Origin: Escherichia phage vB_EcoM_EC001
Length of the DNA stretch: 64,000 nt
Sequence record: MN445185.1
Reading direction: 5' to 3' (one strand)
Position 1 is the first letter of the stretch. Each line of letters begins with the position of its first letter. A model generated the notes under the pieces. The model worked only from the letters and a program-made list of their open reading frames with translations. It was not told the origin of the DNA and searched no databases. The position numbers were made by a program, and so were the translations under genes. Below, piece after piece: positions 3,963-51,597 of the stretch.

Positions 3963-6131
3963 ATGTCATACACTCCCGATTTAGTGGCGACCGTGATTCG
4001 GTCGCTCAACCGTAAAAACGCGGTCGCCAAAGCAGTAGACCCCGCTAACGTACGCCTGGTGTCCGTGGCGCATCGTGACGAAAAAACCCTAGACGTCACA
4101 CTGACAGGGGGTCCGGGGTATTCAAGTTACGGTCAAATTACGGCCCAAGTCACGAAGCAAAATATTGCTGATTATTTCGCCAAGGTTAAGTTGGATGCCA
4201 TTCCCACTTGTGCGTCCATCCACGAACTGTTGCCGCATTTAGACACTCTACTAGGGATTACCTTTTTAACCGACGACTTTGAAGACCTGCCTATCACTTG
4301 GACAAACAATGCTGCGCGCGTCACGTTCCAGGCGAAACAGACAAGTCTTATCTGGTACGGCAGCCAAACGCTAGATGTGATAAACGGTGACGTGGATATC
4401 AACACTGTCTACACTGTTACCAATATCATTCTCACGCTAAAGGCTGCGAATAAACAGCAGTGGATTAACTTCTACTCTAATGCAACCAAACGGATCGTGG
4501 ATCTTGATAAAGTCGATGTCAGCGCCCCGATGTCCCCGGAGGATATAGGCCAAACCTCTGCGTATAACAGCGTCGTAGCATTGACCGCTAGACCGGGGAG
4601 CGGGATGTTTGGAACGAAGTATGTGTTCTTCTCACGTAACAAACTCGAGACATATGCAGGCAAAACCACATACGTCCCGGATGATTTCACCGGTAGCCTG
4701 CACGATGCTCTGGCCATCGAGACACTCGGCATTCGGAGCGTTTTTGATGTAAACGAAATTGCTCCTGTAGAGAACCTGGCAGGCGAGTGGCCAAGACAAG
4801 TGCAATTGGCACCCGTAGAGGGTTCGTACAAAGTCATGGGCAACGCCACGTTGAATGTGGCACGCTATCAAGATAACGAGCAAACCCTTAACCTGAACTA
4901 CACAACTACGTCGCAACTTTCGGACAGCTACTGGGCCACAACGTTGATCAACCATGCGGCGTGCGGGCGTTTGTTTGTTAACGTGACCGTAGATGCAGGG
5001 GCTTTCGTTTATCGCGACAGCAACCTGAAACCGACGTTCGTTATCGACGAATTGCCGCAAATTGGCGAGGTGGTTTGGAACTTCGTTAACCGGGGAACCA
5101 TTCTTGGTCGTGGTGGTTCTGGTATGGTCTACTCTATGCCTGCGAACACATCAGCGGACGGAGCTGACGCAATCCACATTAGCGATACCTTCCGTGGCAA
5201 AGTCACCATCGAAAACTACGGCACCATCGCCGGTGGTGGGGGTGGGGGCGACTACTATGCGTTTAGCACCACCAAGATCGGTGGAGCTGGTGGTGCGCCT
5301 CTCGGGCCAGGCGCGGCGGTGCCCAGCGGCACCAATAACCGTAACGGCTTAGCTGGGTCCCGTGACAAAGGCGGTGCTACCCAGTTAGTCGTCGAGCAAT
5401 TTACCGGCTACCAGAGTCGCTACTATGGCGGTCCGGGTGGGGATTGGGGCCAGCCGGGACGATATACAGCGTTCGAGCAATGGAACACCCCGGCTACCGG
5501 CTCGCCAGTCTATGTCTACGGTCGTGAAGACGGGATGTCATGGACTCGCCCTGGGATGGCAGGCGAAGCTGTCGGTGGGAATAAAAGTATCGTCAACTGG
5601 GTATCCGTCGGAACGGTGAAACCGAATGTTACCGACGAGTACCAAGAGTTCCTCGACTACCTCGCAGTTTTAGATGCCAATCGACTGGCCAGTGCGGATG
5701 GGATAGATAAAGTCACCGACCCAACCAAGCCTGTAGTTGTGGAGTTCTTAGGTACGATTATTTCAGGTACGCTGTTCAAAAAGCAAAACATACCCGGCGG
5801 TTTGGTGGGAACACCATACGGCGATGCTATAGCCAATTTACCGAGCACCACATTGTTTGGTATCATGGCACACAGTGTATCTGAGTTTGATATTGTGCAC
5901 GACACTTGGCGTTACAACCGTGCGGTAATGTTCACGCTAAAACCCGCGCCTACCGGGACGATTAACCTCGCTGTGGAACGCAACCGGGTGAAATCGGCTA
6001 CCAGTAGTGCACCGGTGGAGAAGTTCTATGTCGATCGCTTCGTGTATTACGATGCGTATCTCGGTAAGATGATGGAATGTAATCCGTATACCAAATCCGC
6101 CCCTAAACCGTGGGTGCGGCCAAAGAAATAG
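3963..6131 (+). CDS. Putative tail fibre/adhesin-like protein with Gly-rich segment
   Basis: 722 aa; GGGGGGDYY...GGAGGAPLGPGAA glycine-rich region; C-terminal PYTKSAPKPW motif paralogous to the previous gene; followed by terminator 6187..6218. Confidence 0.5.
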   Translation: MSYTPDLVATVIRSLNRKNAVAKAVDPANVRLVSVAHRDEKTLDVTLTGGPGYSSYGQITAQVTKQNIADYFAKVKLDAIPTCASIHELLPHLDTLLGITFLTDDFEDLPITWTNNAARVTFQAKQTSLIWYGSQTLDVINGDVDINTVYTVTNIILTLKAANKQQWINFYSNATKRIVDLDKVDVSAPMSPEDIGQTSAYNSVVALTARPGSGMFGTKYVFFSRNKLETYAGKTTYVPDDFTGSLHDALAIETLGIRSVFDVNEIAPVENLAGEWPRQVQLAPVEGSYKVMGNATLNVARYQDNEQTLNLNYTTTSQLSDSYWATTLINHAACGRLFVNVTVDAGAFVYRDSNLKPTFVIDELPQIGEVVWNFVNRGTILGRGGSGMVYSMPANTSADGADAIHISDTFRGKVTIENYGTIAGGGGGGDYYAFSTTKIGGAGGAPLGPGAAVPSGTNNRNGLAGSRDKGGATQLVVEQFTGYQSRYYGGPGGDWGQPGRYTAFEQWNTPATGSPVYVYGREDGMSWTRPGMAGEAVGGNKSIVNWVSVGTVKPNVTDEYQEFLDYLAVLDANRLASADGIDKVTDPTKPVVVEFLGTIISGTLFKKQNIPGGLVGTPYGDAIANLPSTTLFGIMAHSVSEFDIVHDTWRYNRAVMFTLKPAPTGTINLAVERNRVKSATSSAPVEKFYVDRFVYYDAYLGKMMECNPYTKSAPKPWVRPKK

Positions 6132-6186
6132 TTATCATAATTTAACGAGGAACTTGACGGGGTTAAAGCCTGAGAATAACCCATGC

Positions 6187-6218
6187 CCTCTTCCCCACGG
6201 GGAAGAGGCTTTCTTTTT
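6187..6218 (+). terminator. Intrinsic terminator after 3963..6131
   Basis: CCTCTTCCCC / GGGGAAGAGG stem followed by CTTTCTTTTT. Confidence 0.65.
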
Positions 6219-6245
6219 ATGACCCTATCAACGCAGGAGGTTATC

Positions 6246-6836
6246 GTGGTCGATCGTTGGAGTAAAGAGGGCATTATTCGTGCCAAAGTAAACATCGAAG
6301 CCGGTTACGTTAATAACCCGAAAGATTTGGGCAAAGCAACGAACCGCGGTGTCACTGAACTCACAGCGCGTGAATATGGCTATAAAGGGGATATGCGTGA
6401 CCTGAGCCTAGAAACCGCGTTAGACATTTACAACAAGCTCTGGTGGCAGCGGATGCGCTTAGACCAGATTATGAAAATGAATGTCCTGCTAGCTGACCGG
6501 ATGTTTGATTTCGGCATCAACGCAGGTCGCGGTAACTGTATCAAGTCCCTGCAGCGCATTCTGAACGTATTAAACCGTCAGGGTAAACTGTACGACGACA
6601 TCGAAGCAGATGGCGGTATTGGGCCACGTACGTTAACAGCGTTAGAAGGCTTTATCAAAGCCCGTGGGGAAGAGGGCCTGAATCGACTGATATTCGCTTT
6701 AACCTGTCATCAGGTTGCGTACTACACGGAAATCAGTGAAGGGCGTGAGGATAACGAAGAGTTTACTTACGGCTGGTATGGCCGCGTCTATCAGGAAATG
6801 CCAGACTACGTGGCTAAGTTGGGGATGTGTAAATGA
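6246..6836 (+). CDS. Endolysin, GH108-like muramidase with C-terminal peptidoglycan-binding domain
   Basis: EAGYVNNPKDLGKATNRGVT matches the GH108 N-terminal EGGYVNDP.DPGG.T..G signature; DGGIGPRTL and GWYGRVY match the PG_binding_3 pattern. GTG 6246 follows RBS AGGAGG (6235-6240); track start 6183 and ATG 6219 lie inside the upstream terminator hairpin. Confidence 0.75.
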   Translation: MVDRWSKEGIIRAKVNIEAGYVNNPKDLGKATNRGVTELTAREYGYKGDMRDLSLETALDIYNKLWWQRMRLDQIMKMNVLLADRMFDFGINAGRGNCIKSLQRILNVLNRQGKLYDDIEADGGIGPRTLTALEGFIKARGEEGLNRLIFALTCHQVAYYTEISEGREDNEEFTYGWYGRVYQEMPDYVAKLGMCK

Positions 6837-7775: not shown

Positions 7776-8291
7776 ATGTTTCATCCGAATCCTGCCAACT
7801 TCGCGTTAAAAGAGTTGATGCCGCAGGAGTACATCGCGAAATACGGTGAAGGTGCTATTCGTTTCCTTAATCCGTTACTGCTAATCTCGCTCCAACAGAT
7901 TCGTAATCGTTTTGGGCGGATGGTGATTTTAACCAGTTCCCAGCAACAGCGTAGTCTGCGTACCCTGCAGTTCTTTATTAATCAAGAGAAACCAAAGGGT
8001 GGAGATTGGCAAACTCGTGCAAACAAACTGTACGCCGAATCAGGCAGTATGCATAAATTCGGTAATGCGTTTGATGCAACAATGCTCGATACTCCGTTGC
8101 AGAAAGTGCACGATTATATTGCCGCGAACCCTGACGAGTTTCCATTTATTCACTTTATCGAGTGCGATATTACCTGGCTACATGTTGACGTACGCAACCA
8201 ACCTGATATCACCTTCTGGTCACCAACACGTGGTACCGTTAAAGTGGTAAAACAACAACCCATCGATTGGAGCAAGCTAGTTAAAATCTAA
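7776..8291 (+). CDS. Peptidase M15-family peptidoglycan hydrolase (T5-endolysin-like L-alanyl-D-glutamate peptidase)
   Basis: RBS AAGGAG; zinc-ligand motifs H-x6-D (SMHKFGNAFD) and downstream LHVDV closely resemble the T5 endolysin/VanY pattern (HITGDAID ... HVEL). Confidence 0.65.
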   Translation: MFHPNPANFALKELMPQEYIAKYGEGAIRFLNPLLLISLQQIRNRFGRMVILTSSQQQRSLRTLQFFINQEKPKGGDWQTRANKLYAESGSMHKFGNAFDATMLDTPLQKVHDYIAANPDEFPFIHFIECDITWLHVDVRNQPDITFWSPTRGTVKVVKQQPIDWSKLVKI

Positions 8292-8370: not shown

Positions 8371-8430
8371 GGTAAATAAAGCCCTTACCCACTCCCCTTA
8401 CGGGAGTGGGTAAGCACTATTTATTTTCTT
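8371..8430. terminator. Bidirectional intrinsic terminator between convergent genes
   Basis: 13-bp stem CTTACCCACTCCC / GGGAGTGGGTAAG (8384-8396, 8402-8414), A-rich upstream and T-rich downstream. Confidence 0.7.
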
Positions 8431-8908
8431 CTAACGGAACAATCGTAACCGGGGTAGGAACTTCGTCAATAAAGCCGCCGCTGCAGCGAAAGAACGTCAT
8501 CCCTTTACCTTCCCCGGTATGCGGGTTCACATCCGAAAAAGAGTAAGTGGGGCCATCGTTTACGGTTTTATTAATACGGTAATAACGCTCACCTGTGGTG
8601 GTGTTAACATTCCCGTCGATTTTGCCAATTGTATCTTTAAACATCATCGGTGACTCAAGTTTGCCACCGTCCCACGTTGCTACCCAGTTTGCACCCACAT
8701 CCATTACTGTTACTGACCGCGGCATCATTTGTAGGTTGTCCAGTACCGGACGGTAGTCTATAAACTTCTCCTGTGTCCCTGTGCATGTATAAATCACCAA
8801 GTCGCGATTCTTTACCGGTGTGCTGCTAAATTGTCCGATGTTGCTTGGTGACTGGACGCAACCGGTCAACAGGCTTATAAACGCGAATACGATAAATAGA
8901 CGTTTCAT
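8417..8908 (-). CDS. Lipoprotein (signal peptide with lipobox LTGC)
   Basis: N-terminus MKRLFIVFAFISLLTGC; isolated minus-strand gene between a bidirectional terminator and a divergent intergenic region. Confidence 0.65.
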   Translation of the reverse strand: MKRLFIVFAFISLLTGCVQSPSNIGQFSSTPVKNRDLVIYTCTGTQEKFIDYRPVLDNLQMMPRSVTVMDVGANWVATWDGGKLESPMMFKDTIGKIDGNVNTTTGERYYRINKTVNDGPTYSFSDVNPHTGEGKGMTFFRCSGGFIDEVPTPVTIVPLEENK

Positions 8909-9032: not shown

Positions 9033-9581
9033 ATGGCAGTCATCTCTGCAAAAGACCAACTCGTCGCGCTGTTTAATGCCGCAAACAGCGGACTGCCTAG
9101 TCCGTTAACTGCTGCTGACGTTACATTCGGCGCTGTTGCTGACTATTCACCAGCTGATTCTGGAGACACTCGCAACTCCAAACTCACCATCACCGCCACC
9201 GCGGAATCCGCTAACTTTACTGGCGAGAAAGAGCTGCATTATACCCGCCTCAATTTATCGGACTTCATCGGTGCGAAAGCAGTGACCGCTGACCAGGCAG
9301 AATGGGATACCGATGAAGAAGTGCTTGCTTTTGTCAACGCAGAACTATTTGGCGACGGTGAAACGGAAGATCCGTTTGCGTTGTCTGAACTCACCATTTC
9401 ACGCGAAGACGGCAGCAGTGGTGAGAAAGTCATCACTGTTATGGTGAAAGAAGGCCACATTAAATTCCAACCTGTCAGCCTTGGAGTTTATACTGTAACG
9501 CAGCCAATCGTTAAAACTGACCTGAGCACCACCAACGGTGAACTGGGCGGATTCGGCGGCGAAGGTCACGCTGGCATGTAA
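9033..9581 (+). CDS. Hypothetical protein
   Basis: RBS AAGGAA; C-terminal TTNGELGGF motif resembles the C-terminus of the 1..634 product. Confidence 0.5.
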   Translation: MAVISAKDQLVALFNAANSGLPSPLTAADVTFGAVADYSPADSGDTRNSKLTITATAESANFTGEKELHYTRLNLSDFIGAKAVTADQAEWDTDEEVLAFVNAELFGDGETEDPFALSELTISREDGSSGEKVITVMVKEGHIKFQPVSLGVYTVTQPIVKTDLSTTNGELGGFGGEGHAGM

Positions 9582-36356: not shown

Positions 36357-36758
36357 ATGACTATCAAGAAGTTCTTACAAACAGTAGTAGTTCTGGCCGC
36401 ATGTGGTATCGCAGCAACTTATGCTTTCGATAAGCCAGACGTGACTGAATACGTATCAGCGGATTCCGATTACGGTATTGCACCGAATGAAAAACCGGAA
36501 CTGATGCGTGAGGTCGAACAGTTACAAATCTACAAACTGACGGATGGTAAGAACTGCACAGGGCTGGTTATCGCTGATAAGAAACTGAAAATGTATCAGC
36601 GGTTAATCGACATATCGTGCGATCAACCAAAAGTCACCTCGGTCAGTGTATCGCCGTTGGAATTGCCAGATCTGGTTGCTGTGAGTTTTTATCACAACGA
36701 TGTGCTCGTTGGTCGCATCACCCTCAATCGTGGAGATATCAAAAATGAAATGCAATAA
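36357..36758 (+). CDS. Secreted/lipoprotein-like small protein, first of a four-gene exported array
   Basis: N-terminal signal peptide with possible lipobox LAAC; two Cys in the mature part. Confidence 0.55.
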   Translation: MTIKKFLQTVVVLAACGIAATYAFDKPDVTEYVSADSDYGIAPNEKPELMREVEQLQIYKLTDGKNCTGLVIADKKLKMYQRLIDISCDQPKVTSVSVSPLELPDLVAVSFYHNDVLVGRITLNRGDIKNEMQ

Positions 36759-37236
36759 CGTTAATCGCCACTTGGCCAAAGTGGTGCTTTTTACTGTGCT
36801 GTTGATGGCACTTGTTGTTGGGCTACGGATTTCTAAGGCACACGCTGACGAATTCAGCGGGTTCCAGGGCAGTATTAACGGCAGCATTCCAGCATATACC
36901 CGCACCATCAATCTTAATGATAAGCCGTTCTGGTGCAATGCGCGTAAGCTGCTTAAGAAACAGTGTCGTGTAGTTGACATATCCTTCAACGGTCGTGTCG
37001 CTATCGTACACCGTCCGGGCGATAAAGATTGCCCAGGTGGTTGGTGGGGTGCAGTCGACCGTCACAACGGTGACGCGTTATGGCTTATCCCTAATCGTGA
37101 TGAACTATCAGTGGAGAAAATTTGCAGCAAAGATTTCAGGGCCGGTTTTGTACAGCGACCGGATACCAAAACTCTGGCCTCCATCGCTATGTACTACGGT
37201 ATGGAAACCATCAAAACAATCGACTATTCAGAATAA
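36745..37236 (+). CDS. Secreted small Cys-containing protein (paralog family)
   Basis: Start at internal ATG after GGAG; signal peptide MKCNNVNRHLAKVVLFTVLLMALVVGLRISKAHA; FWC...C...CPGG motif. Confidence 0.55.
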   Translation: MKCNNVNRHLAKVVLFTVLLMALVVGLRISKAHADEFSGFQGSINGSIPAYTRTINLNDKPFWCNARKLLKKQCRVVDISFNGRVAIVHRPGDKDCPGGWWGAVDRHNGDALWLIPNRDELSVEKICSKDFRAGFVQRPDTKTLASIAMYYGMETIKTIDYSE

Positions 37237-37258
37237 CTCAAAAAATTGAGGTGCTATT

Positions 37259-37669
37259 ATGAAACATTTTTTATTACCAGTTTTACTTGCTACTCTGGCC
37301 ATTAGCTTCTTCGCTCGCGCTGGAAGTATCGAGTTACCAAAAGTTGTTAACGATCACGAATACGGCGGACAGTTCTGGTGCCAGAACTCTGACGTACAAG
37401 GCGGTAGCTGCCAGATCGTTGCGATGTCCGATAACAACCGTTACCTGTTAGTGAAAACGATGGGCGGTGTCGCATGTGGCGACCCTGAATACGGGGTTAT
37501 TAACATGGCAACCGGGCAAGCCGAATCCATGAACTACAATGATAACCAAGCCTGTAGCGGTGAAGCCGTTGCTGAGTTTACACGCGACCCAGGCGACAAT
37601 GCCCTGACGGTTATCATGTACGACCCTACGATTAAGAAAAACGTAGGCATCAATAAACTCGACTTTTAA
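37259..37669 (+). CDS. Secreted small Cys-containing protein (paralog family)
   Basis: Signal peptide MKHFLLPVLLATLAISFFARA; FWCQ...C...CGD motif similar to the previous gene. Confidence 0.6.
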   Translation: MKHFLLPVLLATLAISFFARAGSIELPKVVNDHEYGGQFWCQNSDVQGGSCQIVAMSDNNRYLLVKTMGGVACGDPEYGVINMATGQAESMNYNDNQACSGEAVAEFTRDPGDNALTVIMYDPTIKKNVGINKLDF

Positions 37670-39473: not shown

Positions 39474-41984
39474 ATGCTCAAGGTCGAACGTATCATTTTG
39501 AAAGGATTTACCGGCATGGGGTTACATGAAATCGAAACGTTTGATTTCACCCTCAAGTCCACCGTTACCATCATCCTCGGCGGTAACGGCTGCGGTAAAA
39601 CAAGCCTCCTATCTGTTTTTCTCCCCATAGCTCCAGCAAAATCTGAATTCCGTGAAGGTGGTTCTTACACTAACTACGCGTTAGTCGGGGACGACCGTCT
39701 TAAGTTTGAAGTCCTGCGTCGTGGGTCTTCTCTGTCTTGTAGTATCTTCAACATCACTAAAGGTGTTTCCGTCGTAGACTCGGTAAACGCCAAAGTTTAC
39801 AACTCCATGGTGGAGCAATTAACCGGAATCACCAAAGAAATCAAAGAGTTAATTAATGGTGAGACCTTATTAACTGACGCCACTACCGAAGTTCGTCGTA
39901 AATGGTTTACGTTAATGTCAGAATCTGATCTGACGTACGTTGTTGGTTGTTATCGTCGTCTGCGTAAACTCGCTTCCAGTTTAAGTGGGGCCATTGAGCA
40001 CACCGGCCGTAAAATCGGTGAGGCAAAAATGCGCGTGGTGGACGATGAAGAAGATCGTGCACGTTTGGAAGTTCGTTTGAAAGAACTGGACGTTGAGCTT
40101 CAGGAACTAAACCGCACCATTGAAGCGAGACCCGGTTTAGATAACGCCGTTTCGGTTGATAGTATCCGGAAACGCATTGCTTCGTTGCAACCGGCTGTAA
40201 AACTCATTATGGAGCGTTATGGTGTTCTGCCTTCTGACGAACTGATTAACGAGTTTCAAAGTCGTGTAGTTGCCTGGCGTGAGCAAGCTGCCTCTGCTGA
40301 AACTGAATGCAACATGTACAATAAAGAGTTGTCACAGCTACTGGATGAGGAGTCGCGTCAAGCGTATCTGATGCGCAACCATACCGGTCTAAAACAAACA
40401 ATCGACAGCTTAAAACAGGAACTGGCAACGTTCCAACAGAACTGGATGTTCCCGGCTCTGTTTGAAGGTACCCGCATCGATGTGGATAGCATTCAGAACG
40501 CGTTAAACGATGCCTGTAACTGGAATTTACCGTTGTCCATGCATCTGGACCAGTTAAAGACAACAGAGCGCCTGGGAGCGTTAGAGAAGCGTTTACAGGG
40601 TATGGATTTAACCTCTGCGGGTCTATCTGAAAAGCTGCAACGTTGTGAGAATGTGCTACACGGTTTATACCACGACCGTCAACACTTCTTAGAAACTGCA
40701 GAAGTTGATTGTCCACAGTGTAACCACCGTTTCCGTCCTGGGATTCGTAAGTCGTTACCTGAAATTGAAAAGGCCATCAACGATAATGAAGGTTGGAAGA
40801 AGCAGCTGAAAGACGAAATGGATAGTCTTTTGCGTGACCGCAAAGAGATTGAAGAGGACGTCCGTAGCTTACGTACGATTCGCGAAATCGTCATGTCGTA
40901 TTCCAATCATCCCGTTGTCGGTTTGTTTTTCCGTAAACTGCAGGAGCTGGATATCTTCACCACGGCGCGGGATCGTTACGGTGCCATTGCACGTGCCTTT
41001 ACTGAAGAGTTAGATTCGGCCATGATGTATCTGCGTCAATCGGCGAAGCTTGCAACAGCGGAACGGGAATGGCAAGAGGCTGTTGCCGCAGTAGGTAACG
41101 TTGATGGTGCGCTGAGCCAGAAAATTGAACATATCCGTTCACAACTGGATGGGGCTAACCGTCGACTGATAGAATACCGCAGACAAGCCAATGAGCTGGA
41201 ACGCGAAACCACCCAACTGCAACAAACCAAAGAAGCAATCGAACGTTTCCAAAAGGGCTACGAACATCTGGTATCGGAAATGAACATCTCCGTTAACAAC
41301 GTCGTGGTTCGCGAGTTGTTAAACCGACGCGAAGCGAAGCTCGATGCGTATACTTCCGCTCGTGAACGGTTTCGTCAAATGGAAGGGGCTATTGCACGTT
41401 TAGCGGAACTGGAAAAAGAGCAAGCTGAATTGCTTAAAGAGCATCACCATGCCAGATTGATTATCAATGCCGTCTCACCCGAAAAAGGATTATTGCGTCG
41501 TTACTTTTATGCTGCGATTACCCGCATCATGGATTTAATGAATCGGTATATCGAAATGGTGTGGGCATATCCGATGCAGGTTATTCCATGCGATCTAACC
41601 GACGGGGATTTGGATTATACTTTCCCGGTACGATTAAAAGACCATGAAGAACTGGTGCCGGATGTGAAGAAAGGTTCGAAGGCACAGCGTATTATCTTTA
41701 ACATGATGTTTCGTTTAACGGCGTATAAAGCGCTTGGTTTACAAAACTATCCTTTGTTATTGGATGAACCCTCTGAAGGCATGGATGAGGAACACAAAAA
41801 TCGACTGGTCAACTTCATTAAATCGTTGGCGTTGTCGGGAGAGTTTTCTCAATTGCTGGTCGTTTCGCATGAAGCGGAAGTTCATTCTAAACTTAACGAA
41901 GCCACCTACTGTGTCGTGGAGCCAGAAGGTGTAACGCTTCCACCGGTTTATAACGAAGGGGTAATAATCAAATATGCATCATAA
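39474..41984 (+). CDS. Rad50/SbcC-family ATPase with coiled coil and central CxxC zinc hook
   Basis: N-terminal Walker A GGNGCGKTS; central CPQC in the middle of a long coiled-coil-like region; C-terminal Walker B LLLDEPSEGMD and H-loop VVSHE. Confidence 0.8.
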   Translation: MLKVERIILKGFTGMGLHEIETFDFTLKSTVTIILGGNGCGKTSLLSVFLPIAPAKSEFREGGSYTNYALVGDDRLKFEVLRRGSSLSCSIFNITKGVSVVDSVNAKVYNSMVEQLTGITKEIKELINGETLLTDATTEVRRKWFTLMSESDLTYVVGCYRRLRKLASSLSGAIEHTGRKIGEAKMRVVDDEEDRARLEVRLKELDVELQELNRTIEARPGLDNAVSVDSIRKRIASLQPAVKLIMERYGVLPSDELINEFQSRVVAWREQAASAETECNMYNKELSQLLDEESRQAYLMRNHTGLKQTIDSLKQELATFQQNWMFPALFEGTRIDVDSIQNALNDACNWNLPLSMHLDQLKTTERLGALEKRLQGMDLTSAGLSEKLQRCENVLHGLYHDRQHFLETAEVDCPQCNHRFRPGIRKSLPEIEKAINDNEGWKKQLKDEMDSLLRDRKEIEEDVRSLRTIREIVMSYSNHPVVGLFFRKLQELDIFTTARDRYGAIARAFTEELDSAMMYLRQSAKLATAEREWQEAVAAVGNVDGALSQKIEHIRSQLDGANRRLIEYRRQANELERETTQLQQTKEAIERFQKGYEHLVSEMNISVNNVVVRELLNRREAKLDAYTSARERFRQMEGAIARLAELEKEQAELLKEHHHARLIINAVSPEKGLLRRYFYAAITRIMDLMNRYIEMVWAYPMQVIPCDLTDGDLDYTFPVRLKDHEELVPDVKKGSKAQRIIFNMMFRLTAYKALGLQNYPLLLDEPSEGMDEEHKNRLVNFIKSLALSGEFSQLLVVSHEAEVHSKLNEATYCVVEPEGVTLPPVYNEGVIIKYAS

Positions 41985-42165
41985 AGGTTGGCGCTTATGG
42001 GCTTGGTGGGGTTTTCAGTTCCTTCAGTTTGTTGTGATGGTACTGTACCTCTCCTTTTGTGCAACCGTAGTGGTTATCGCTGCGGTCGTTTATTTAGCTG
42101 CTGCTCTTAAAGAACGTCTGTTCGACACGCGTTGTGAGTGGCGAGATATAGGAGAACGGACATGA
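41974..42165 (+). CDS. Small hydrophobic membrane protein
   Basis: 63 aa; hydrophobic stretch FQFLQFVVMVLYLSFCATVVVIAAVVYLAAAL. Confidence 0.4.
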   Translation: MHHKGWRLWAWWGFQFLQFVVMVLYLSFCATVVVIAAVVYLAAALKERLFDTRCEWRDIGERT

Positions 42166-42266
42166 TTGAAGGTATCGTATTAACCGGTATTGCACTGTGG
42201 TTGATTCGTGGTGCCTGGGGTTGGATTATCCGCACGAAAGGATGGGCATTCCATGGCAAGACGTAA
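42162..42266 (+). CDS. Small hydrophobic peptide (34 aa)
   Basis: ATG preceded by GGAGAA; MIEGIVLTGIALWLIRGAWGWII...; below the ORF-track length cutoff, my own translation. Confidence 0.35.
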   Translation: MIEGIVLTGIALWLIRGAWGWIIRTKGWAFHGKT

Positions 42267-42444
42267 ACCTGGTCGTTTAAAGTTTTGGGCAGTTGTGGTA
42301 ATGCACACTGTGGTGCTACTCGGTATTTTCATGTCTCGCGCTACGCCTGCCTTTTGGGGCTTAGTTGTTTTGGTGTTCTTAGAAGGGGTTTACTTCGGTA
42401 ATCTGTGGAGCAAGCCCCCCGCGTTTAAGGGACCCGGCTTATGA
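42253..42444 (+). CDS. Small hydrophobic membrane protein
   Basis: Start at internal ATG (MARRKPGRLKFWAVVVMHTVVLLGIFM...); one or two TM-like segments. Confidence 0.4.
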   Translation: MARRKPGRLKFWAVVVMHTVVLLGIFMSRATPAFWGLVVLVFLEGVYFGNLWSKPPAFKGPGL

Positions 42445-45635: not shown

Positions 45636-46358
45636 ATGTTTCGCACCATTTTATTTCTTCTGGTAGCAGTGACCACATTCAACAGCAACGCTTCTTACCA
45701 GTCCACCAGTAACAAACATCAAAAAGAATTTGTCCTTATCCAGGACCAGTTCAATGAGATTAAACCTCTCATCGTCTCTGCATCTCGAAAACAAGGCGTA
45801 CATGCCGGGATGCTTGCGACCACCATTTACCGCGAATCCCGTTTTAATAAAAACGTGGGTAAGAATAAATCGAGCAGTGCTAGTAGTGTTGTCCAAATGA
45901 CGACAGGTACTAAACGCTCCATGATACGTCTGTATGGGAAACAACTTAACATCCCAAAGAACGCAGACCTTAATAAACCGAAATATGCTGTACAGCTTGC
46001 TGCTGTTTACATGAAACACATCGAGGATCATCTGACAAAACAACTCAAACGCAAGCCGAGCACAGCCGAAATTGCATTAGGCTACCGCTTCGGTGAGAGC
46101 GCTGCTGTTGCGATGATTAAAAAGAAATCATCGGTCGGGAAACGCTGGATGGACAGCTACCGAAAAGACGCAGCATTCTACGGTGCGAAAATGACGCCAC
46201 CGAAAGCTGAAACACGTCAGCTTGCTTTTGCGAAGGAAGACCGCGACCAACGCGTCGCTGAGCTTCAGAAAATCTGGGATACGCTGTACACCAAAATATC
46301 ACCTGCGGCCGGTACACTACTGGCAAATAACACTATCATGAAAGGAGCATTGCTTTGA
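45636..46358 (+). CDS. Secreted lytic-transglycosylase-like (SLT domain) protein
   Basis: Signal peptide MFRTILFLLVAVTTFNSNA; YRESRFN...SSSASSVVQMTTGT fits the SLT pattern ES....S.A.GLMQ..T. Confidence 0.45.
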   Translation: MFRTILFLLVAVTTFNSNASYQSTSNKHQKEFVLIQDQFNEIKPLIVSASRKQGVHAGMLATTIYRESRFNKNVGKNKSSSASSVVQMTTGTKRSMIRLYGKQLNIPKNADLNKPKYAVQLAAVYMKHIEDHLTKQLKRKPSTAEIALGYRFGESAAVAMIKKKSSVGKRWMDSYRKDAAFYGAKMTPPKAETRQLAFAKEDRDQRVAELQKIWDTLYTKISPAAGTLLANNTIMKGALL

Positions 46359-46999: not shown

Positions 47000-47266
47000 G
47001 TGTTCGTGAAACGTTTAATAAATTTTCTCTACTGGATGGAGAAACGCTATAGCCACAACATTCCGATGATGTATAGTTTGTTATTCTCCACGGTAATGTT
47101 GGTAATCGGTGCGATAGTCGCGCATTTGATGGAACTCACCACTCCATGGGCGCAGCTTTTTCTCACCATCTGGATGTTGTTCTCAGGCTACCACATACGT
47201 GGTTTCATAACCCGATTCTTTCGCTGGCGTAGTACCTGGCATGTCTTTAATTCCGACCGTAACTAG
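47000..47266 (+). CDS. Small membrane protein (two predicted TM helices)
   Basis: 88 aa; LLFSTVMLVIGAIVAHLM and LFLTIWMLFSGY hydrophobic segments. Confidence 0.45.
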   Translation: MFVKRLINFLYWMEKRYSHNIPMMYSLLFSTVMLVIGAIVAHLMELTTPWAQLFLTIWMLFSGYHIRGFITRFFRWRSTWHVFNSDRN

Positions 47267-48464: not shown

Positions 48465-48518
48465 ATAAAAAATAAAAGCCTACCTACTCCCTTGGGAGTA
48501 GGTAGTTCTTTTTTTCTT
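48465..48518. terminator. Bidirectional intrinsic terminator
   Basis: CTACCTACTCCC / GGGAGTAGGTAG stem, A-run upstream and TTCTTTTTTTCT downstream. Confidence 0.7.
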
Positions 48519-49141
48519 TAATTTGTTAACCCGTTATCTTTCAGGATTTTCAACATCGCATCATTCAACGCCTGCAGTTCTTGATTCTGCTTAGTGAGTG
48601 TTGCAACTTGTTCTGTCAGAGGAACCTGCTCACGGATTTTGGCTTTACGCACCGCTTCCATTTGCAAGTGTTCTTCTTCCGTCACCGTCCCTTCGTAATC
48701 CATCGATGTGATGTCCACACGTGCATCGATTCCTAAACCGCGTTCTAAGATGCTTTTCAGGTCGTTCGTTAGCAGTGTGACATCGACGTATTCGGGTATT
48801 AATGCCAGGTCAATAACCACCACATTGCGTCTATAATTTAACCCGTTCAGTCCAGGATACGTCTCAATGTACGTATCAGGCAACTCGTAGACTTGACCGT
48901 CCCTCGACTTTAATGTTACAATCGAGGCTTCGACATTAGCGTCGCTGATATAGTCGTCACGAGTTAGGCCGACAGGTTTATAATACTTGTTATAAACGTC
49001 AATATTATTACGTTGGAGTTTCGGAAAGTTCTGTACCGCGTCAACACGGTAAATCACTTTATCTGGCAACGTATAAGGTGCCTTAACCTTGAACAACCCC
49101 TCAAGGTTAACCTGAGGCGTGTTAGGCAACAGTTGTGCCAT
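48518..49141 (-). CDS. Hypothetical protein
   Basis: 207 aa; second gene of a two-gene minus-strand cassette. Confidence 0.55.
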   Translation of the reverse strand: MAQLLPNTPQVNLEGLFKVKAPYTLPDKVIYRVDAVQNFPKLQRNNIDVYNKYYKPVGLTRDDYISDANVEASIVTLKSRDGQVYELPDTYIETYPGLNGLNYRRNVVVIDLALIPEYVDVTLLTNDLKSILERGLGIDARVDITSMDYEGTVTEEEHLQMEAVRKAKIREQVPLTEQVATLTKQNQELQALNDAMLKILKDNGLTN

Positions 49142-49151
49142 TTAACCCTCC

Positions 49152-50531
49152 TTAGGCTTTTGGCTCTGCCGCAGGAACATCCCAAATGGCCTTACGGGCC
49201 AAGACACGATATTCCACGTTATCGAATTCGAAGACGTAGAAGTAAACGTTAGGATCAACGTCGTCTACGAGCTTCACGATATCCAACGGGGTGGAGTGCG
49301 GATGGTACTCTTCGGCTGCAATTAACGCCTGGAAGAACAGATCCAACCACTCGGTGGTTTTCTTCGACATTCTCGCAATATCCGCATTATTAGTGCCGAT
49401 TAATGCGTAGTCAGGAATTGTGTCATGCAGGGTCGTTTTGCGTGAATCGTTTTCAGGGCCAGCGATAACCACGGCGTTCAACGATTTATAGATGGACGGT
49501 AAATCCGTTACATCGGTAGTTGGAATCGAGATCGCTCCACTATTTTTTTCCGTAATGGTTTGAACAGTCCACTCCCCAAATCGGGAGATTGCTTTGACCC
49601 AGAAATCATATGGGAGAATCGGCGAGTATAATGCCGCAACATCTTCCTCATTTGGAATCCCACGAATTGACCAACCGGGAACAATTGTGAACTTGGTGGT
49701 CGTAAAGATTTCTGGGAACACTTTGACACCCAACGCCACAGTAAAACTGGAGTTTGCCAAAATGTAATCACGTAACGCTTGTTTAATCCTGCTCGGGTTA
49801 CGACCCGCGCGTCCGTAGATGATAGCCGACATCGGTATCGGTAAGGTGGAGTCAAAGTCTTCCTGGTCGTGCCAAGTATAGATGTTAGTAATCAGGCTAG
49901 TGTACGGATAACCGTCAGCTAATTCGTTAATCTTATTATGGTGATCCGGAAGGTTGAACCCTTCCATTGCCTTTTCGACTACAGATTTCACAGCCAAGAA
50001 AGTATCAACCGGTAATATCGGCATTTGGACTTCAATTTCAAATCCAGTATAGTCCTGATTGAAATCTTCATCAGCAAACCAGAGAATAATCTGGTTATTT
50101 ACATCAGACGGGTCTTCGACTTTATCTGCTGTGGTTTCAAGTTTCCAACTGACCCAACGTGGGAACCAGTTACTGTTAGTCTGAATCATCGCGCCAGACT
50201 GAACACCGCTGATGACACTATTAAATTGCCCCAACAGCAAACGCTGGAATTCAACTTCGTCGTTTCTTAAGTTGCCCAGGATAGACTGTTGGTAGATCCA
50301 TTGGGAAACAGTAAGAACGTGGTCGCTAAAGACGGCCGGGGTCTTAATAGGCAACTCGTCACGTTTAGAAGTAAAAGCAACCAGTTCCACCTGCAGATTT
50401 TCTTTAGTAAAATACTGCTTGCTTTTAGCGAACGAATATGACAGCTCAGACAACTCACCTACCGGAGCGGTGTTGCCAGGGCCATTATCAATCAGAGCCG
50501 CTATTTGAATAAAGCCTTGTAAATCATACAT
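49152..50531 (-). CDS. Hypothetical protein
   Basis: 459 aa ORF with RBS GGAG upstream; divergent from 50550. Confidence 0.6.
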   Translation of the reverse strand: MYDLQGFIQIAALIDNGPGNTAPVGELSELSYSFAKSKQYFTKENLQVELVAFTSKRDELPIKTPAVFSDHVLTVSQWIYQQSILGNLRNDEVEFQRLLLGQFNSVISGVQSGAMIQTNSNWFPRWVSWKLETTADKVEDPSDVNNQIILWFADEDFNQDYTGFEIEVQMPILPVDTFLAVKSVVEKAMEGFNLPDHHNKINELADGYPYTSLITNIYTWHDQEDFDSTLPIPMSAIIYGRAGRNPSRIKQALRDYILANSSFTVALGVKVFPEIFTTTKFTIVPGWSIRGIPNEEDVAALYSPILPYDFWVKAISRFGEWTVQTITEKNSGAISIPTTDVTDLPSIYKSLNAVVIAGPENDSRKTTLHDTIPDYALIGTNNADIARMSKKTTEWLDLFFQALIAAEEYHPHSTPLDIVKLVDDVDPNVYFYVFEFDNVEYRVLARKAIWDVPAAEPKA

Positions 50532-50549: not shown

Positions 50550-51065
50550 GTGAGCATGATAGCATCAGTTTTCAAACTGCTTCCATTCTTACAGATGCTG
50601 TGGGAAGCATTTAAACCGGGCGAGGGGGAGAAAGTAACACGAGCCGGGAAGATAGTGACACTAGTGATAGTGGCACTGGTCGCGTTCTCTGCATTTGTCT
50701 CATATGCCTATATTGTTCAATACCACACACTGGTTAGCGTCCAATCGCGTACTCAGTATCTGGAGATATCCTATAAGGAGCTAAAAGAGAAGTCCGATCA
50801 TGGCGAAGTGGAGAACAATAAGCTGTACGATCGTCTCTTCACATGCCTGGGTTCTCGATCGCCATATGATGGTACCAAATCTCCAACAGGGACAGGCACT
50901 GGGGCCGCGGTTCCGCCTGAAGAACTCAAGCCGGTAACACCACAGGCACCGTTAAATCCGTCTAGCCCGCCTGCCAAGAAACACCAGGCGGCTTCTCGCC
51001 CAGTGGGGTCGCAGGCGGCAAACGATTTCCGACAGGAGATTATCAAGACGCTTAATAATCCATGA
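50550..51065 (+). CDS. Membrane-anchored protein with Pro-rich periplasmic tail (i-spanin-like candidate)
   Basis: Single N-terminal TM (IVTLVIVALVAFSAFVSYAYIV), then a charged helical segment and a Pro-rich C-terminus. Confidence 0.4.
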   Translation: MSMIASVFKLLPFLQMLWEAFKPGEGEKVTRAGKIVTLVIVALVAFSAFVSYAYIVQYHTLVSVQSRTQYLEISYKELKEKSDHGEVENNKLYDRLFTCLGSRSPYDGTKSPTGTGTGAAVPPEELKPVTPQAPLNPSSPPAKKHQAASRPVGSQAANDFRQEIIKTLNNP

Positions 51066-51074
51066 GGAGCATAC

Positions 51075-51554
51075 ATGAAGTTATTTTTGGTGGCGATACT
51101 GGTGCTATTGTTGACAGGATGCCCTGGGGTCATCCGTCACGTAGACCCAGATTACTCCTCAACCGGAGATTGGCCTTTTCGTCCTTTAGAACACCCACCA
51201 GTATATAACGGTGGGAACAGTCCTGAGGCGAAAAAGCTGGCAGGGAAAATGTTTGTTGCGGATGTGAACGCTTATGCTTATTACGTTTATCTGTACGCTA
51301 AGTCAGTAAACAACTATGCAGAAGCTAAAGGGTGGCACACCCCGATGACCGCACCGCTTTGTGAAGAGTTTATTCGCCCCACTCTTCATGGTATACCCTC
51401 CGGGATATATCTCGACCCTGGTTCTCGTAGCCCTCAAGACATTAGTCGTGATTTGTCACGACAGATTAAGTCTCTCATTCGCAGCTATCGCGAAGACAGA
51501 GAGTCTTTTAATCGTGCCTACGAACGGCACAAAAGTAGTTGCCTTGTGCAATGA
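51075..51554 (+). CDS. Lipoprotein (lipobox LTGC)
   Basis: MKLFLVAILVLLLTGC signal/lipobox; immediately downstream of the membrane-anchored gene; followed by terminator 51558..51597. Confidence 0.6.
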   Translation: MKLFLVAILVLLLTGCPGVIRHVDPDYSSTGDWPFRPLEHPPVYNGGNSPEAKKLAGKMFVADVNAYAYYVYLYAKSVNNYAEAKGWHTPMTAPLCEEFIRPTLHGIPSGIYLDPGSRSPQDISRDLSRQIKSLIRSYREDRESFNRAYERHKSSCLVQ

Positions 51555-51557
51555 AAA

Positions 51558-51597
51558 CTCCCTCTTACCTTCGGGTAAGAGGGGATTTCCTTTTTTA
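51558..51597 (+). terminator. Intrinsic terminator
   Basis: CCCTCTTACC-TTCG-GGTAAGAGGG hairpin followed by T-run. Confidence 0.7.

What the first reader, a model, noticed from the sequence alone, without database searches (positions are those of the whole stretch)
50550..51554. Candidate spanin-like pair located far from the endolysin
A type-II membrane protein with a Pro-rich periplasmic tail (50550..51065) is followed by a lipoprotein (51075..51554, lipobox LTGC). This is the gene order of separated i-spanin and o-spanin components, yet it lies about 44 kb from the endolysin, and the lipoprotein (159 aa) is larger than typical o-spanins. It may instead be another envelope-targeted accessory pair.
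Basis: partly seen in the sequence, partly recalled or inferred. Interest (0 to 1): 0.4.

Follow-up and report, generated by a model that had tools for sequence, protein, structure and literature searches.

The report
Likely spanin pair of jumbo phage
Two adjacent genes of a SPN3US-like giant Salmonella phage encode an inner-membrane protein and an outer-membrane lipoprotein that most likely form the spanin, the complex that breaks the outer membrane at lysis; relatives were already listed as spanin candidates in 2018, so the finding is real but largely ordinary.

Summary
The window is a SPN3US-like jumbo phage (99% to Salmonella phage JN03). Gene A (best start ATG 50556, 169 aa) is a type-II membrane protein with a Pro-rich linker. 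Gene B (51075-51554, 159 aa) is a lipoprotein with lipobox LLTG|C and Pro at +2. They are SPN3US gp204/gp205, annotated hypothetical.

The spanin reading is supported. [quoted passage not shown] A six-frame lipobox census of the ~240-kb genome finds no other lipoprotein with a membrane-protein gene upstream. The pair is adjacent in 72 phage genomes and in divergent metagenomic lineages.

The "44 kb from the endolysin" oddity is wrong. SPN3US gp198, an SLT transglycosylase related to phiKZ endolysin gp144, lies 4.2 kb upstream, with a holin-like 88-aa protein nearby. Large o-spanins (120-167 aa) are usual in jumbo phages.

Atypical features: B folds as a helical hairpin (AF2 pLDDT 91.5), and A's cytoplasmic N-terminus is its most conserved part. 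There is no sequence homology to validated spanins and no experiment. Verdict: new member of a known kind, confidence about 0.7.

The parts
50556..51065 (+). Gene A (SPN3US gp204 orthologue), candidate i-spanin, 169 aa. Layout: conserved amphipathic cytoplasmic N-terminus (1-32), TM segment (33-55), periplasmic helix (56-98) ending in an invariant Cys97 and a PPY motif, variable Pro-rich linker (~107-146), and a conserved short C-terminal helix RPVG..FRQEIIKTLNNP. The mechanical ORF opens at GTG 50550.
   Evidence: orthologue of CR5_183, listed as SIS in SpaninDB
51075..51554 (+). Gene B (SPN3US gp205 orthologue), candidate o-spanin lipoprotein, 159 aa. Layout: signal peptide with lipobox LLTG|C16 and Pro at +2, poorly conserved Pro-containing tether (17-49) carrying a WPFRPLE.PP motif, then a helical hairpin (H50-84, ordered loop 85-119, H120-154) with invariant Cys96 and Cys156.
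   Evidence: orthologue of CR5_184, listed as SOS in SpaninDB
51052..51074 (+). Junction between A and B. A's TGA stop (51063-51065) lies inside B's Shine-Dalgarno sequence GAGGAG. The gap is 9 nt and the two genes share a reading frame. This arrangement is suited to translational coupling (inferred).
51559..51584 (.). Bidirectional hairpin terminator (11-bp stem, 6 G-C pairs, T-run) that closes the two-gene A-B transcription unit.
45636..46358 (+). Context: SLT lytic transglycosylase (SPN3US gp198, annotated 'putative endolysin'). It is a homologue of the catalytic domain of phiKZ endolysin gp144, and has an N-terminal signal-peptide-like segment MFRTILFLLVAVTTFNSNA|S that is conserved in all lineages examined.
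47000..47266 (+). Context: 88-aa protein (SPN3US gp200) with two hydrophobic segments and a highly basic C-terminus, i.e. holin/pinholin-like topology. This is a candidate only; it matches no family.
   Evidence: analogous small 2-TM genes follow the SLT gene in L010 and L018
48518..50531 (-). Context: inverted two-gene virion module (DUF7194 protein at 48518-49141 and a 459-aa virion structural protein at 49152-50531). It separates the SLT side from the A-B pair in every lineage examined.

Best explanation
Genes A and B encode the two-component spanin of this SPN3US-like jumbo phage, in the 'separated' gene architecture.

Proposed mechanism:
1. A is anchored in the inner membrane by one N-in/C-out TM helix. 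It projects a helix, a flexible Pro-rich linker and a short conserved C-terminal helix into the periplasm.
2. B is lipidated at Cys16, sorted to the inner leaflet of the outer membrane, and hangs a helical-hairpin domain on a ~33-residue tether.
3. The conserved C-terminal helix of A binds the hairpin of B, forming a complex that spans the periplasm through the peptidoglycan mesh.
4. Once the exported SLT endolysin (gp198) is activated, probably by a small holin such as gp200, and degrades the murein, the freed complexes collapse and fuse or disrupt the outer membrane. This completes lysis.

Shown here: the topology signals, the lipobox, the adjacency and its conservation, the uniqueness of the pair in the genome, orthology to the SpaninDB CR5 entries, the fold of B, and the nearby SLT gene.

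Inferred: the A-B interaction, dimerisation through the conserved cysteines, the membrane-fusion activity, and the identity of the holin.
For: (1) Architecture: a type-II TM protein gene is followed 9 nt later, on the same strand, by a lipoprotein gene with Pro rather than Asp at +2. They form their own transcription unit ending in a strong terminator.

[quoted passage not shown] The window proteins match them at E = 1e-18 and 1e-24, and the neighbourhoods are collinear.

(3) Uniqueness: a six-frame, all-start-codon lipobox census of the ~240-kb genome gives only three credible lipoprotein genes. Only B has a TM-protein gene directly upstream, and none is u-spanin-like.

(4) Conservation: A and B are adjacent in 72 of 72 phage records and in pVa-21 and six metagenomic lineages at 20-30% identity. 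36 of 38 B-family representatives have a lipobox-type Cys and none has Asp at +2.

(5) Spanin-like domain logic: in A, the linker is the least conserved region and varies in length, while the C-terminal helix is conserved. Heptad periodicity is significant in 6 of 8 family members, and Kongari predicted a coiled coil in CR5_183. Periplasmic cysteines are conserved: A Cys97 is invariant in close relatives, and B Cys96 and Cys156 are invariant in all 38 representatives.

(6) Lysis context: an SLT homologue of phiKZ endolysin gp144 (E = 2e-10), annotated putative endolysin in SPN3US, lies 4.2 kb upstream and carries a conserved export signal. In pVa-21, L011 and L016 it abuts the inverted virion module next to the pair. 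Small 2-TM holin-like genes follow it in the window, L010 and L018.

(7) Size is not an objection: the experimentally validated phiKZ o-spanin is 120 aa, and EL and Ea35-70 have 149 and 167 aa.
Against: - No member of either family has been tested. The SpaninDB entry is itself hedged ('best candidates', 'Too long?').
- There is no sequence or profile similarity to any validated spanin. That includes Pfam LysC/Rz1-like, phiKZ gp141/141.1 and lambda Rz/Rz1 (hhalign probability 0.2% for the mature domains).
- B is a well-folded helical hairpin (pLDDT 91.5), unlike the short, largely unstructured classical o-spanins.
- A's cytoplasmic N-terminus is its most conserved region (0.85). That is unexpected if the N-terminus only anchors the protein.
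- Heptad periodicity in the window's own A is weak (shuffles reach it in 15% of trials).
- The periplasmic Cys of A is missing in L010 and L011.
- Two of 38 B-family representatives have plain signal peptides without a lipobox Cys.
- The whole region is a conserved backbone block of these phages. Proximity to the SLT gene may therefore reflect general synteny rather than a functional cassette.
Confidence: 0.7

Rival explanations
1. The pair is an envelope-targeted accessory system that is not the outer-membrane disruption step. One option is a periplasmic regulator or inhibitor that keeps the Sec-exported SLT transglycosylase in check until lysis time. Another is a superinfection-exclusion module in the manner of T4 Imm/Sp or T5 Llp.
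For: - The SLT endolysin carries an export signal in all lineages, so some mechanism must restrain it before lysis.
- B is a folded domain rather than a floppy o-spanin.
- A's cytoplasmic N-terminus is strongly conserved, which suggests a role beyond anchoring.
- In Ea35-70 a TM/coiled-coil gene sits at the same position without a lipoprotein, while that phage's census spanins lie elsewhere.
- There is no homology to known spanins.
Against: - There is no structural or sequence resemblance to known lysozyme or transglycosylase inhibitors, or to exclusion lipoproteins. The PDB fold and sequence searches are empty.
- The pair is a conserved core feature across phages of Salmonella, Erwinia, Cronobacter and Vibrio and uncultured lineages. 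That is unlike host-specific exclusion morons.
- If this pair is not the spanin, the genome has no spanin candidate at all.
- Ea357_145 is not a detectable homologue of A.
Confidence: 0.17
2. A is a class III (T4 gpt-like topology) holin or holin regulator, with a short cytoplasmic N-terminus, one TM segment and a larger periplasmic domain. B would be its periplasmic or outer-membrane partner, for example an antiholin-like sensor.
For: - A has the N-in/C-out single-TM topology of class III holins, with a ~32-residue conserved cytoplasmic head. In T4 gpt that part binds the regulator RIII.
- phiKZ shows that jumbo phages use single-TM class III holins with a regulatory partner.
Against: - There is no similarity to T4 gpt or to phiKZ gp142/gp143.
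- A's periplasmic part is a helix plus a disordered Pro-rich linker, not a globular domain.
- A more conventional holin candidate exists beside the SLT gene: the 88-aa two-TM protein with a basic C-tail.
- The strict TM-then-lipoprotein gene order is the hallmark of spanins (citing Kongari 2018).
Confidence: 0.06
3. The two genes are functionally unrelated neighbours, and the resemblance to a spanin pair is coincidental.
For: The region is part of a rigidly conserved backbone block (SLT ... virion genes ... exonuclease - RNase H). Conserved adjacency alone therefore does not prove coupling.
Against: - The 9-nt spacing, with A's stop codon inside B's ribosome-binding site, and a private terminator point to a shared unit.
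- Co-occurrence is perfect in 72 of 72 genomes and in all sampled divergent lineages.
- The topologies are complementary (inner-membrane anchor and outer-membrane lipoprotein), each with a flexible tether and a conserved distal element.
Confidence: 0.03

Closest known systems
Cronobacter phage CR5 CR5_183/CR5_184, listed in SpaninDB (Kongari et al. 2018, PMC6139136) as separated i-spanin and o-spanin, each a 'singleton' family
   Same: - Orthologous proteins: 33% identity and E = 1e-18 for A; 29% identity and E = 1e-24 for B.
- Same lengths (171 and 148 aa), the same xLTG|C lipobox and the same cysteines.
- The same gene neighbourhood, including the SLT 'endolysin' five genes upstream.
   Different: The CR5 assignment is bioinformatic only and was hedged by its curators. 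The window phage belongs to another genus (Seoulvirus), where the genes are still annotated as hypothetical.
phiKZ gp141 / gp141.1, the experimentally validated spanin of a related nucleus-forming jumbo phage (Manohar et al. 2026, PMC12894885)
   Same: - A type-II inner-membrane protein of ~168 aa followed by an unusually long lipoprotein (120 aa).
- Belongs to a Chimalliviridae phage whose endolysin is an SLT-type transglycosylase.
   Different: - The phiKZ genes overlap and sit inside a contiguous cassette with the holin, a regulator and the endolysin. Here the genes are separated by 9 nt and lie 4.2 kb from the SLT gene, beyond an inverted virion module.
- gp141.1 belongs to Pfam LysC (PF23793), but B does not. 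There is no profile similarity between the mature domains.
- The phiKZ endolysin has a PG-binding domain and no signal peptide. The SLT protein here has a signal peptide.
Lambda Rz/Rz1 and T4 PseT.3/PseT.2, the classical two-component spanins
   Same: An inner-membrane type-II protein with a helical periplasmic domain is paired with an outer-membrane lipoprotein encoded immediately downstream, and both have periplasmic cysteines. T4 also uses the separated architecture. (Established knowledge of these families; Kongari 2018.)
   Different: - There is no sequence similarity.
- Rz1-type o-spanins have about 40-60 mature residues and are Pro-rich and unstructured. B has a 143-residue mature part with a confident helical-hairpin fold.
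- A has a long Pro-rich linker and a conserved cytoplasmic amphipathic N-terminus, neither typical of Rz.

Membership tests
Two-component spanin (functional class; criteria of Summer 2007 / Kongari 2018) | The i-spanin has a single N-terminal TM domain with N-in/C-out (type II) topology. | tested here: met
   One hydrophobic segment at residues 33-55 (Kyte-Doolittle 2.46-2.72), with K/R on its N-terminal side. The same layout is found in all homologues. This is a prediction only; no dedicated topology predictor was available.
Two-component spanin (functional class; criteria of Summer 2007 / Kongari 2018) | The o-spanin gene is the next gene downstream of the i-spanin gene (or embedded in or overlapping it), on the same strand. 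| tested here: met
   The gap is 9 nt on the same strand, and A's stop codon lies inside B's Shine-Dalgarno sequence. Adjacency is conserved in all lineages examined.
Two-component spanin (functional class; criteria of Summer 2007 / Kongari 2018) | The o-spanin has an SPase II signal with a lipobox, and no Asp at +2 (outer-membrane sorting). | tested here: met
   LLTG|C16 with Pro at +2. 36 of 38 family representatives have a lipobox-type Cys and none has Asp at +2. Lipidation itself was not tested.
Two-component spanin (functional class; criteria of Summer 2007 / Kongari 2018) | The periplasmic domain of the i-spanin is dominated by alpha-helix or coiled coil. | tested here: inconclusive
   Only ~40 of the 113 periplasmic residues form the conserved helix. 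The crude heptad score is weak for the window protein (shuffles reach it in 15% of trials) but strong in 6 of 8 relatives (2% or less). The validated phiKZ gp141 is equally weak (24%). Kongari predicted one coiled coil in CR5_183.
Two-component spanin (functional class; criteria of Summer 2007 / Kongari 2018) | The o-spanin is short and Pro-rich with little secondary structure. | tested here: not met
   The mature B is 143 aa and has a confident helical-hairpin fold (AF2 pLDDT 91.5). Only the N-terminal tether (17-49) is Pro-containing and poorly conserved. This feature is typical rather than strictly defining: the validated phiKZ o-spanin is 120 aa and partly helical.
Two-component spanin (functional class; criteria of Summer 2007 / Kongari 2018) | At least one subunit has periplasmic cysteines available for intermolecular disulfide-linked homodimers. 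| tested here: met
   A Cys97 is invariant among relatives at 52% identity or more but absent in L010 and L011. B Cys96 and Cys156 are invariant in all 38 representatives. Whether they form inter- or intramolecular bonds was not testable.
Two-component spanin (functional class; criteria of Summer 2007 / Kongari 2018) | The pair is required for outer-membrane disruption: it complements lambda Rz(am)Rz1(am), and mutants arrest as spherical cells. | not testable with these tools
   No experiment on this family was found in the literature.
SpaninDB CR5 i-spanin / o-spanin singleton families (Kongari 2018) | Detectable homology over the periplasmic domain to CR5_183 and CR5_184. | tested here: met
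   BLASTP E = 1e-18 (33% identity, full length) and E = 1e-24 (29% identity, residues 4-157). The neighbourhoods are collinear.
Pfam PF23793 LysC (Rz1-like o-spanin; includes phiKZ gp141.1 and the 201phi2-1 o-spanin) | A match to the family HMM above the gathering threshold. | tested here: not met
   gp141.1 scores 40.1 bits and the 201phi2-1 protein 28.3 bits. B, pVa21_138 and the L011 homologue give no match even at E <= 10. hhalign of the mature domains gives probability 0.2%.
Class III holin (T4 gpt family) / phiKZ class IIIb holin gp142 | Sequence homology to gpt or gp142. | tested here: not met
   A has no Pfam holin hit. tblastn of gp142 and gp143 against the window finds nothing. Holin function itself (lethality triggered by energy poisons) is not testable here.

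The most novel reading that the evidence does not exclude
The A/B family is a structurally distinct kind of spanin, or not a spanin at all. The outer-membrane partner is a folded, disulfide-bearing helical hairpin on a tether. It would capture the conserved C-terminal helix of the inner-membrane partner into a helical bundle, a zipper-like mechanism reminiscent of viral or SNARE fusion bundles. The strongly conserved cytoplasmic amphipathic head of A would couple the complex to an inner-membrane event, such as holin triggering or activation of the Sec-exported SLT endolysin. In the non-spanin variant of this reading, the pair regulates the exported transglycosylase, and these jumbo phages breach the outer membrane by an unknown route.
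Probability: 0.2. Interest if true: 0.55.

Novelty: new member of a known kind. Interest (0 to 1): 0.3.

Why it matters
SPN3US is the genetic model for enterobacterial giant, nucleus-forming phages, yet its lysis system is essentially unannotated: gp204 and gp205 are 'hypothetical' in all 72 related genomes. Assigning the spanin pair, and recognising a loose lysis neighbourhood (exported SLT endolysin gp198, holin-like gp200, spanins gp204/gp205), gives directly testable targets. It would also improve annotation of a whole clade of Salmonella, Erwinia, Cronobacter and Vibrio jumbo phages that are being developed for biocontrol. Mechanistically, the confident helical-hairpin model of the lipoprotein and the conserved cytoplasmic head of the membrane partner would broaden the known structural range of spanins, if function is confirmed. 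This is incremental rather than surprising, because the orthologous CR5 pair was already flagged as the best spanin candidate in 2018.

Tried and rejected
- **Positional equivalence with phiKZ gp141/141.1:** rejected. The phiKZ neighbourhood differs, and the tblastn hits I first saw in that check came from the CR5 locus.
- **Sequence or profile homology to validated spanins** (phiKZ gp141/141.1, 201phi2-1, lambda Rz/Rz1, T4-like, Ea35-70): none beyond the signal peptide and lipobox.
- **Is Ea357_145, at the syntenic site in Ea35-70, a homologue of A?** Not detectable (3.7 bits).
- **Fold search of the B model:** nothing significant in the PDB. In the viral library only B's own family is significant, followed by non-significant hits to other jumbo-phage lipoproteins and one annotated o-spanin. 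The AFDB library was unavailable.
- **PDB sequence searches with both family profiles:** empty.
- **First AF2 run with a 7-sequence alignment:** low confidence (pLDDT 60). It was superseded by the 38-sequence run.
- **The search for related loci:** the phiKZ gp141 query returned one self-like contig, and the B alignment had no stretch conserved enough to search with.
- **Literature on SPN3US gp198, gp200, gp204 or gp205:** nothing found. The infection-proteomics paper (PMC6384053) is not held.
- **An A-B fusion AF2 run:** considered and dropped, because the tool reports no inter-residue contacts or PAE, so the result could not be interpreted.
- **Other lipoprotein genes in the window as alternative o-spanins** (8417-8908 on the minus strand, 36357-36758): rejected. 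Neither has an upstream TM partner in the required order, and neither has the C-terminal TM segment of a u-spanin.
Full report
**Identity of the window.** The 2.4 kb around the finding is 99% identical to Salmonella phage JN03 and 97-98% identical to SPN3US and about 30 other Seoulvirus genomes. These are ~240-kb nucleus-forming jumbo phages related to phiKZ. The two genes are SPN3US_0204 and SPN3US_0205 (RefSeq ACQ60_gp062 and gp061). They are annotated 'hypothetical protein' in every record inspected. Their PHROG families, 8719 and 8165, have no assigned function, and no Pfam or NCBIfam family matches.

**Checking the observation.** Both ORFs are present as described.

Gene A opens mechanically at GTG 50550, but that GTG is part of the ribosome-binding site GAGGTGA. 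All close full-length homologues (P0011-P0021) are 169 aa and start MIAS, the PHROG match begins at residue 3 of the longer form, and the CR5 orthologue was curated with the same GAGGT-plus-4-nt spacing. I therefore place the start at ATG 50556. A has one strong hydrophobic segment (residues 33-55) with K/R on its N-terminal side, which predicts N-in/C-out topology. About 113 residues would then lie in the periplasm, 11% of them proline.

Gene B begins MKLFLVAILVLLLTG|C, a canonical lipobox, with Pro at +2 and therefore no Lol-avoidance Asp. A's TGA stop lies inside B's Shine-Dalgarno sequence GAGGAG and the gap is 9 nt. A strong bidirectional hairpin terminator follows B at 51559-51584. The pair is thus its own two-gene unit, divergent from the virion gene that ends 18 nt upstream of the GTG.

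**Is it more than chance?** tblastn finds each protein in the same 72 phage records (Salmonella, Erwinia, Cronobacter, Proteus and Escherichia jumbo phages), always adjacent. A profile search of 1.84 billion representative proteins finds 38 B-family representatives of 126-206 aa. Of these, 36 have a lipobox-type Cys and none has Asp at +2. Cys96 and Cys156 are the only invariant columns.

In every divergent member whose context I could read, a 130-165-aa gene lies directly upstream. This covers Vibrio phage pVa-21 and metagenomic contigs L010, L011, L015, L016 and L018; in the short contig L017 the upstream gene is cut off by the contig end and only its C-terminal 66 aa are seen. The complete upstream genes share the layout of A: a TM segment at about residues 34-52, a helix, a Pro-rich linker, and a short C-terminal helix ending ...IN[DNG].

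**Prior knowledge.** The supplementary SpaninDB tables of Kongari et al. 2018 (PMC6139136) list Cronobacter phage CR5 gene CR5_183 (168815-169330) as a separated i-spanin and CR5_184 (169340-169786, 148 aa) as its o-spanin. Both are 'singleton' families. [quoted passage not shown] These are the CR5 loci hit by A and B (H100, H56). Direct BLASTP gives 33% identity at E = 1e-18 and 29% identity at E = 1e-24, and the CR5 neighbourhood is collinear with the window.

**Are there competing spanin candidates?** I assembled a ~240-kb pseudo-genome from the window plus the JN03 flanks. I then scanned all six frames from every ATG, GTG or TTG for signal-peptide-plus-lipobox ORFs, so that embedded or overlapped o-spanins would be caught. 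Only three credible lipoprotein genes emerged, all inside the window: 8417-8908 on the minus strand, 36357-36758, and B. The first has no same-strand upstream partner. The second is followed, not preceded, by exported proteins. Neither has the C-terminal TM segment of a unimolecular spanin. No spanin, holin or endolysin is annotated elsewhere in JN03. If this genome encodes a two-component spanin, A and B are the only candidates.

**The 'distance from the endolysin'.** The window holds three muralytic candidates:
- an M15-like protein at 7776-8291;
- an SLT transglycosylase at 45636-46358.

The first two lie within a block of virion and tail-fibre-like genes and a DUF1353 'tail assembly' gene, and are not annotated as endolysin. 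The SLT protein is SPN3US_0198, annotated 'putative endolysin' by the original authors. It is the only window protein that matches the phiKZ endolysin gp144 (tblastn E = 2e-10 over the catalytic domain), and its CR5 counterpart is what the SpaninDB curators called the endolysin. It lies 4.2 kb upstream of A.

Across all lineages the gene order is the same: SLT, then 0-5 small genes, then DUF7194 and a ~440-aa virion gene (both on the minus strand), then A, B, an exonuclease and RNase H. In pVa-21, L011 and L016 the SLT gene abuts the inverted virion module directly.

Every SLT orthologue begins with a signal-peptide-like segment; here it is MFRTILFLLVAVTTFNSNA|S. It is therefore an exported endolysin, either Sec-cleaved or SAR-type (inference). 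An 88-aa protein at 47000-47266 has two hydrophobic segments and a very basic C-terminus, the topology of class II holins or pinholins. L010 has a similar 84-aa gene right after its SLT gene, and L018 has four such genes. None matches a known holin family, so this is a candidate only.

Dispersed lysis genes are in any case not unusual in this virus family. In Serratia jumbo phage PCH45 the essential transglycosylase gp152 and a predicted Rz-like spanin gp54 lie far apart.

**The size of the lipoprotein.** In phiKZ the spanin pair gp141/gp141.1 has been validated by complementation of lambda Rz(am)Rz1(am), and its o-spanin has 120 codons. The SpaninDB o-spanins of other jumbo phages are 149 aa (EL), 167 aa (Ea35-70) and 148 aa (CR5). 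A 159-aa o-spanin is therefore within the jumbo-phage range.

**Anatomy and likely mechanism.** Region-wise conservation in A is as follows:

| Region of A | Mean column identity |
|---|---|
| Cytoplasmic N-terminus (1-32) | 0.85 |
| TM segment (33-55) | 0.81 |
| Periplasmic helix (56-98) | 0.77 |
| Pro-rich linker (107-146) | 0.49, with indels of up to ~21 residues |
| C-terminal helix (147-169) | 0.80 |

Heptad periodicity in the helix is significant in 6 of 8 lineages. It is weak in the window protein itself (shuffles reach it in 15% of trials), but the validated phiKZ gp141 is just as weak on this crude test (24%).

For B, AF2 with the 38-sequence alignment gives a confident model (pLDDT 91.5, pTM 0.67). 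A poorly conserved tether (residues 17-49) is followed by two antiparallel 35-residue helices (50-84 and 120-154) joined by an ordered 35-residue loop that carries Cys96. Cys156 lies just after helix 2.

The simplest reading has each protein made of a membrane anchor, a flexible spacer and a conserved distal element. The C-terminal helix of A would dock onto the hairpin of B, and the combined length would be enough to cross the periplasm. After murein degradation the complex would act as other spanins do. The A-B contact, the role of the cysteines and the fusion activity are all inferences.

**What does not fit.**
- There is no sequence or profile relationship to any validated spanin. phiKZ gp141.1 and the 201phi2-1 o-spanin belong to Pfam LysC (PF23793), but B and its relatives do not, and hhalign on the mature domains gives probability 0.2%. 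This is weak counter-evidence, because spanins fall into more than 120 unrelated families per component.
- B is a folded helical domain, unlike classical o-spanins.
- A's cytoplasmic head is its most conserved part, whereas spanin N-termini are thought to serve only as anchors.
- A's periplasmic Cys is absent in two lineages.
- Two of 38 B-family representatives lack the lipobox Cys.
- Ea35-70 has a TM/coiled-coil gene at the same position without a lipoprotein, while its census spanins lie elsewhere. That gene is not a detectable homologue of A.
- Fold and sequence searches against solved structures gave nothing. The viral-model library returned only B's own family, plus non-significant hits to other jumbo-phage lipoproteins.

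**Verdict.** The spanin interpretation is the best-supported one (about 0.7), and the two supposed anomalies are explained. The pair is a new, still unannotated member of a known kind. It belongs to a sequence family already flagged, but never tested, as spanin candidates. Some structural features would be worth a bench test. The main rival, at about 0.17, is an envelope accessory or regulatory pair linked to the exported transglycosylase.

Noticed in passing
window 45636-46358 (+): The SLT transglycosylase (SPN3US gp198, 'putative endolysin') has an N-terminal signal-peptide-like segment, and so do its orthologues in CR5, pVa-21 and five metagenomic lineages. It therefore looks like a Sec-exported or SAR-type endolysin, unlike phiKZ gp144, which has a PG-binding domain and no signal.
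   Followed up: partly
window 47000-47266 (+); also L010 2869-3123 and L018 2335-3147: Small two-TM proteins with basic tails follow the SLT gene: one of 88 aa here, one of 84 aa in L010, and four of 56-83 aa in L018. Their topology is holin/pinholin-like, but they match no known family.
   Followed up: partly
window 6183-6836 (+) and 7776-8291 (+): A GH108 plus PG_binding_3 muramidase-like protein and an M15-like peptidase sit inside a virion/tail-fibre gene block, beside a DUF1353 'tail assembly' gene. Whether they are tail-associated lysins or additional endolysins is unresolved.
   Followed up: partly
window 8417-8908 (-): A solo 163-aa lipoprotein gene (lipobox LLTG|C, phrog_9559, unknown function) lies between the M15-like gene and a DUF7941 gene. 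It has no TM partner.
   Followed up: no
window 36357-37669 (+): A cluster of three exported proteins: a 133-aa lipoprotein (lipobox LAA|C), then two paralogous Cys-rich proteins with a signal anchor or signal peptide (phrog_17072 and phrog_8968). This is an envelope-targeted module of unknown role, in the wrong gene order for a spanin.
   Followed up: no
window 9033-9581 (+); also 2629-3948 and 3963-6131: These proteins share the DUF7941 / phrog_2935 N-terminal domain with phiKZ gp143, recently described as a holin-binding lysis regulator. Here the domain is spread over tail-fibre-like paralogues, so the link to lysis is doubtful.
   Followed up: partly
L009 (Erwinia phage Ea35-70) 6500-6907 (-): A 135-aa TM plus coiled-coil gene (Ea357_145) sits at the position syntenic to A, between the virion gene and RNase H, with no lipoprotein gene beside it. 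That phage's SpaninDB spanins lie elsewhere (Ea357_015). It is not detectably homologous to A.
   Followed up: partly
proteins P0035 and P0063 (B-family representatives): Two of the 38 B-family representatives have ordinary signal peptides without a lipobox Cys. They could be soluble periplasmic variants or mis-called starts.
   Followed up: no
window 50556-51554: A and B are in the same reading frame, separated by one TGA and three codons, and the TGA lies inside B's ribosome-binding site. This suggests translational coupling.
   Followed up: no
phage records LR535901-LR535917 (several SPFM phages): tblastn hits to both genes are broken into 4-8 pieces in several SPFM genomes, and the database proteins derived from them are garbled. 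These assemblies look frameshift-ridden, so they were excluded from the alignments.
   Followed up: no
window 41974-42444 (+): Two further small membrane proteins: one of 63 aa with one TM segment and one of 78 aa with two TM segments (phrog_16515 and phrog_18173, unknown function). They are alternative holin-like candidates and were not examined.
   Followed up: no
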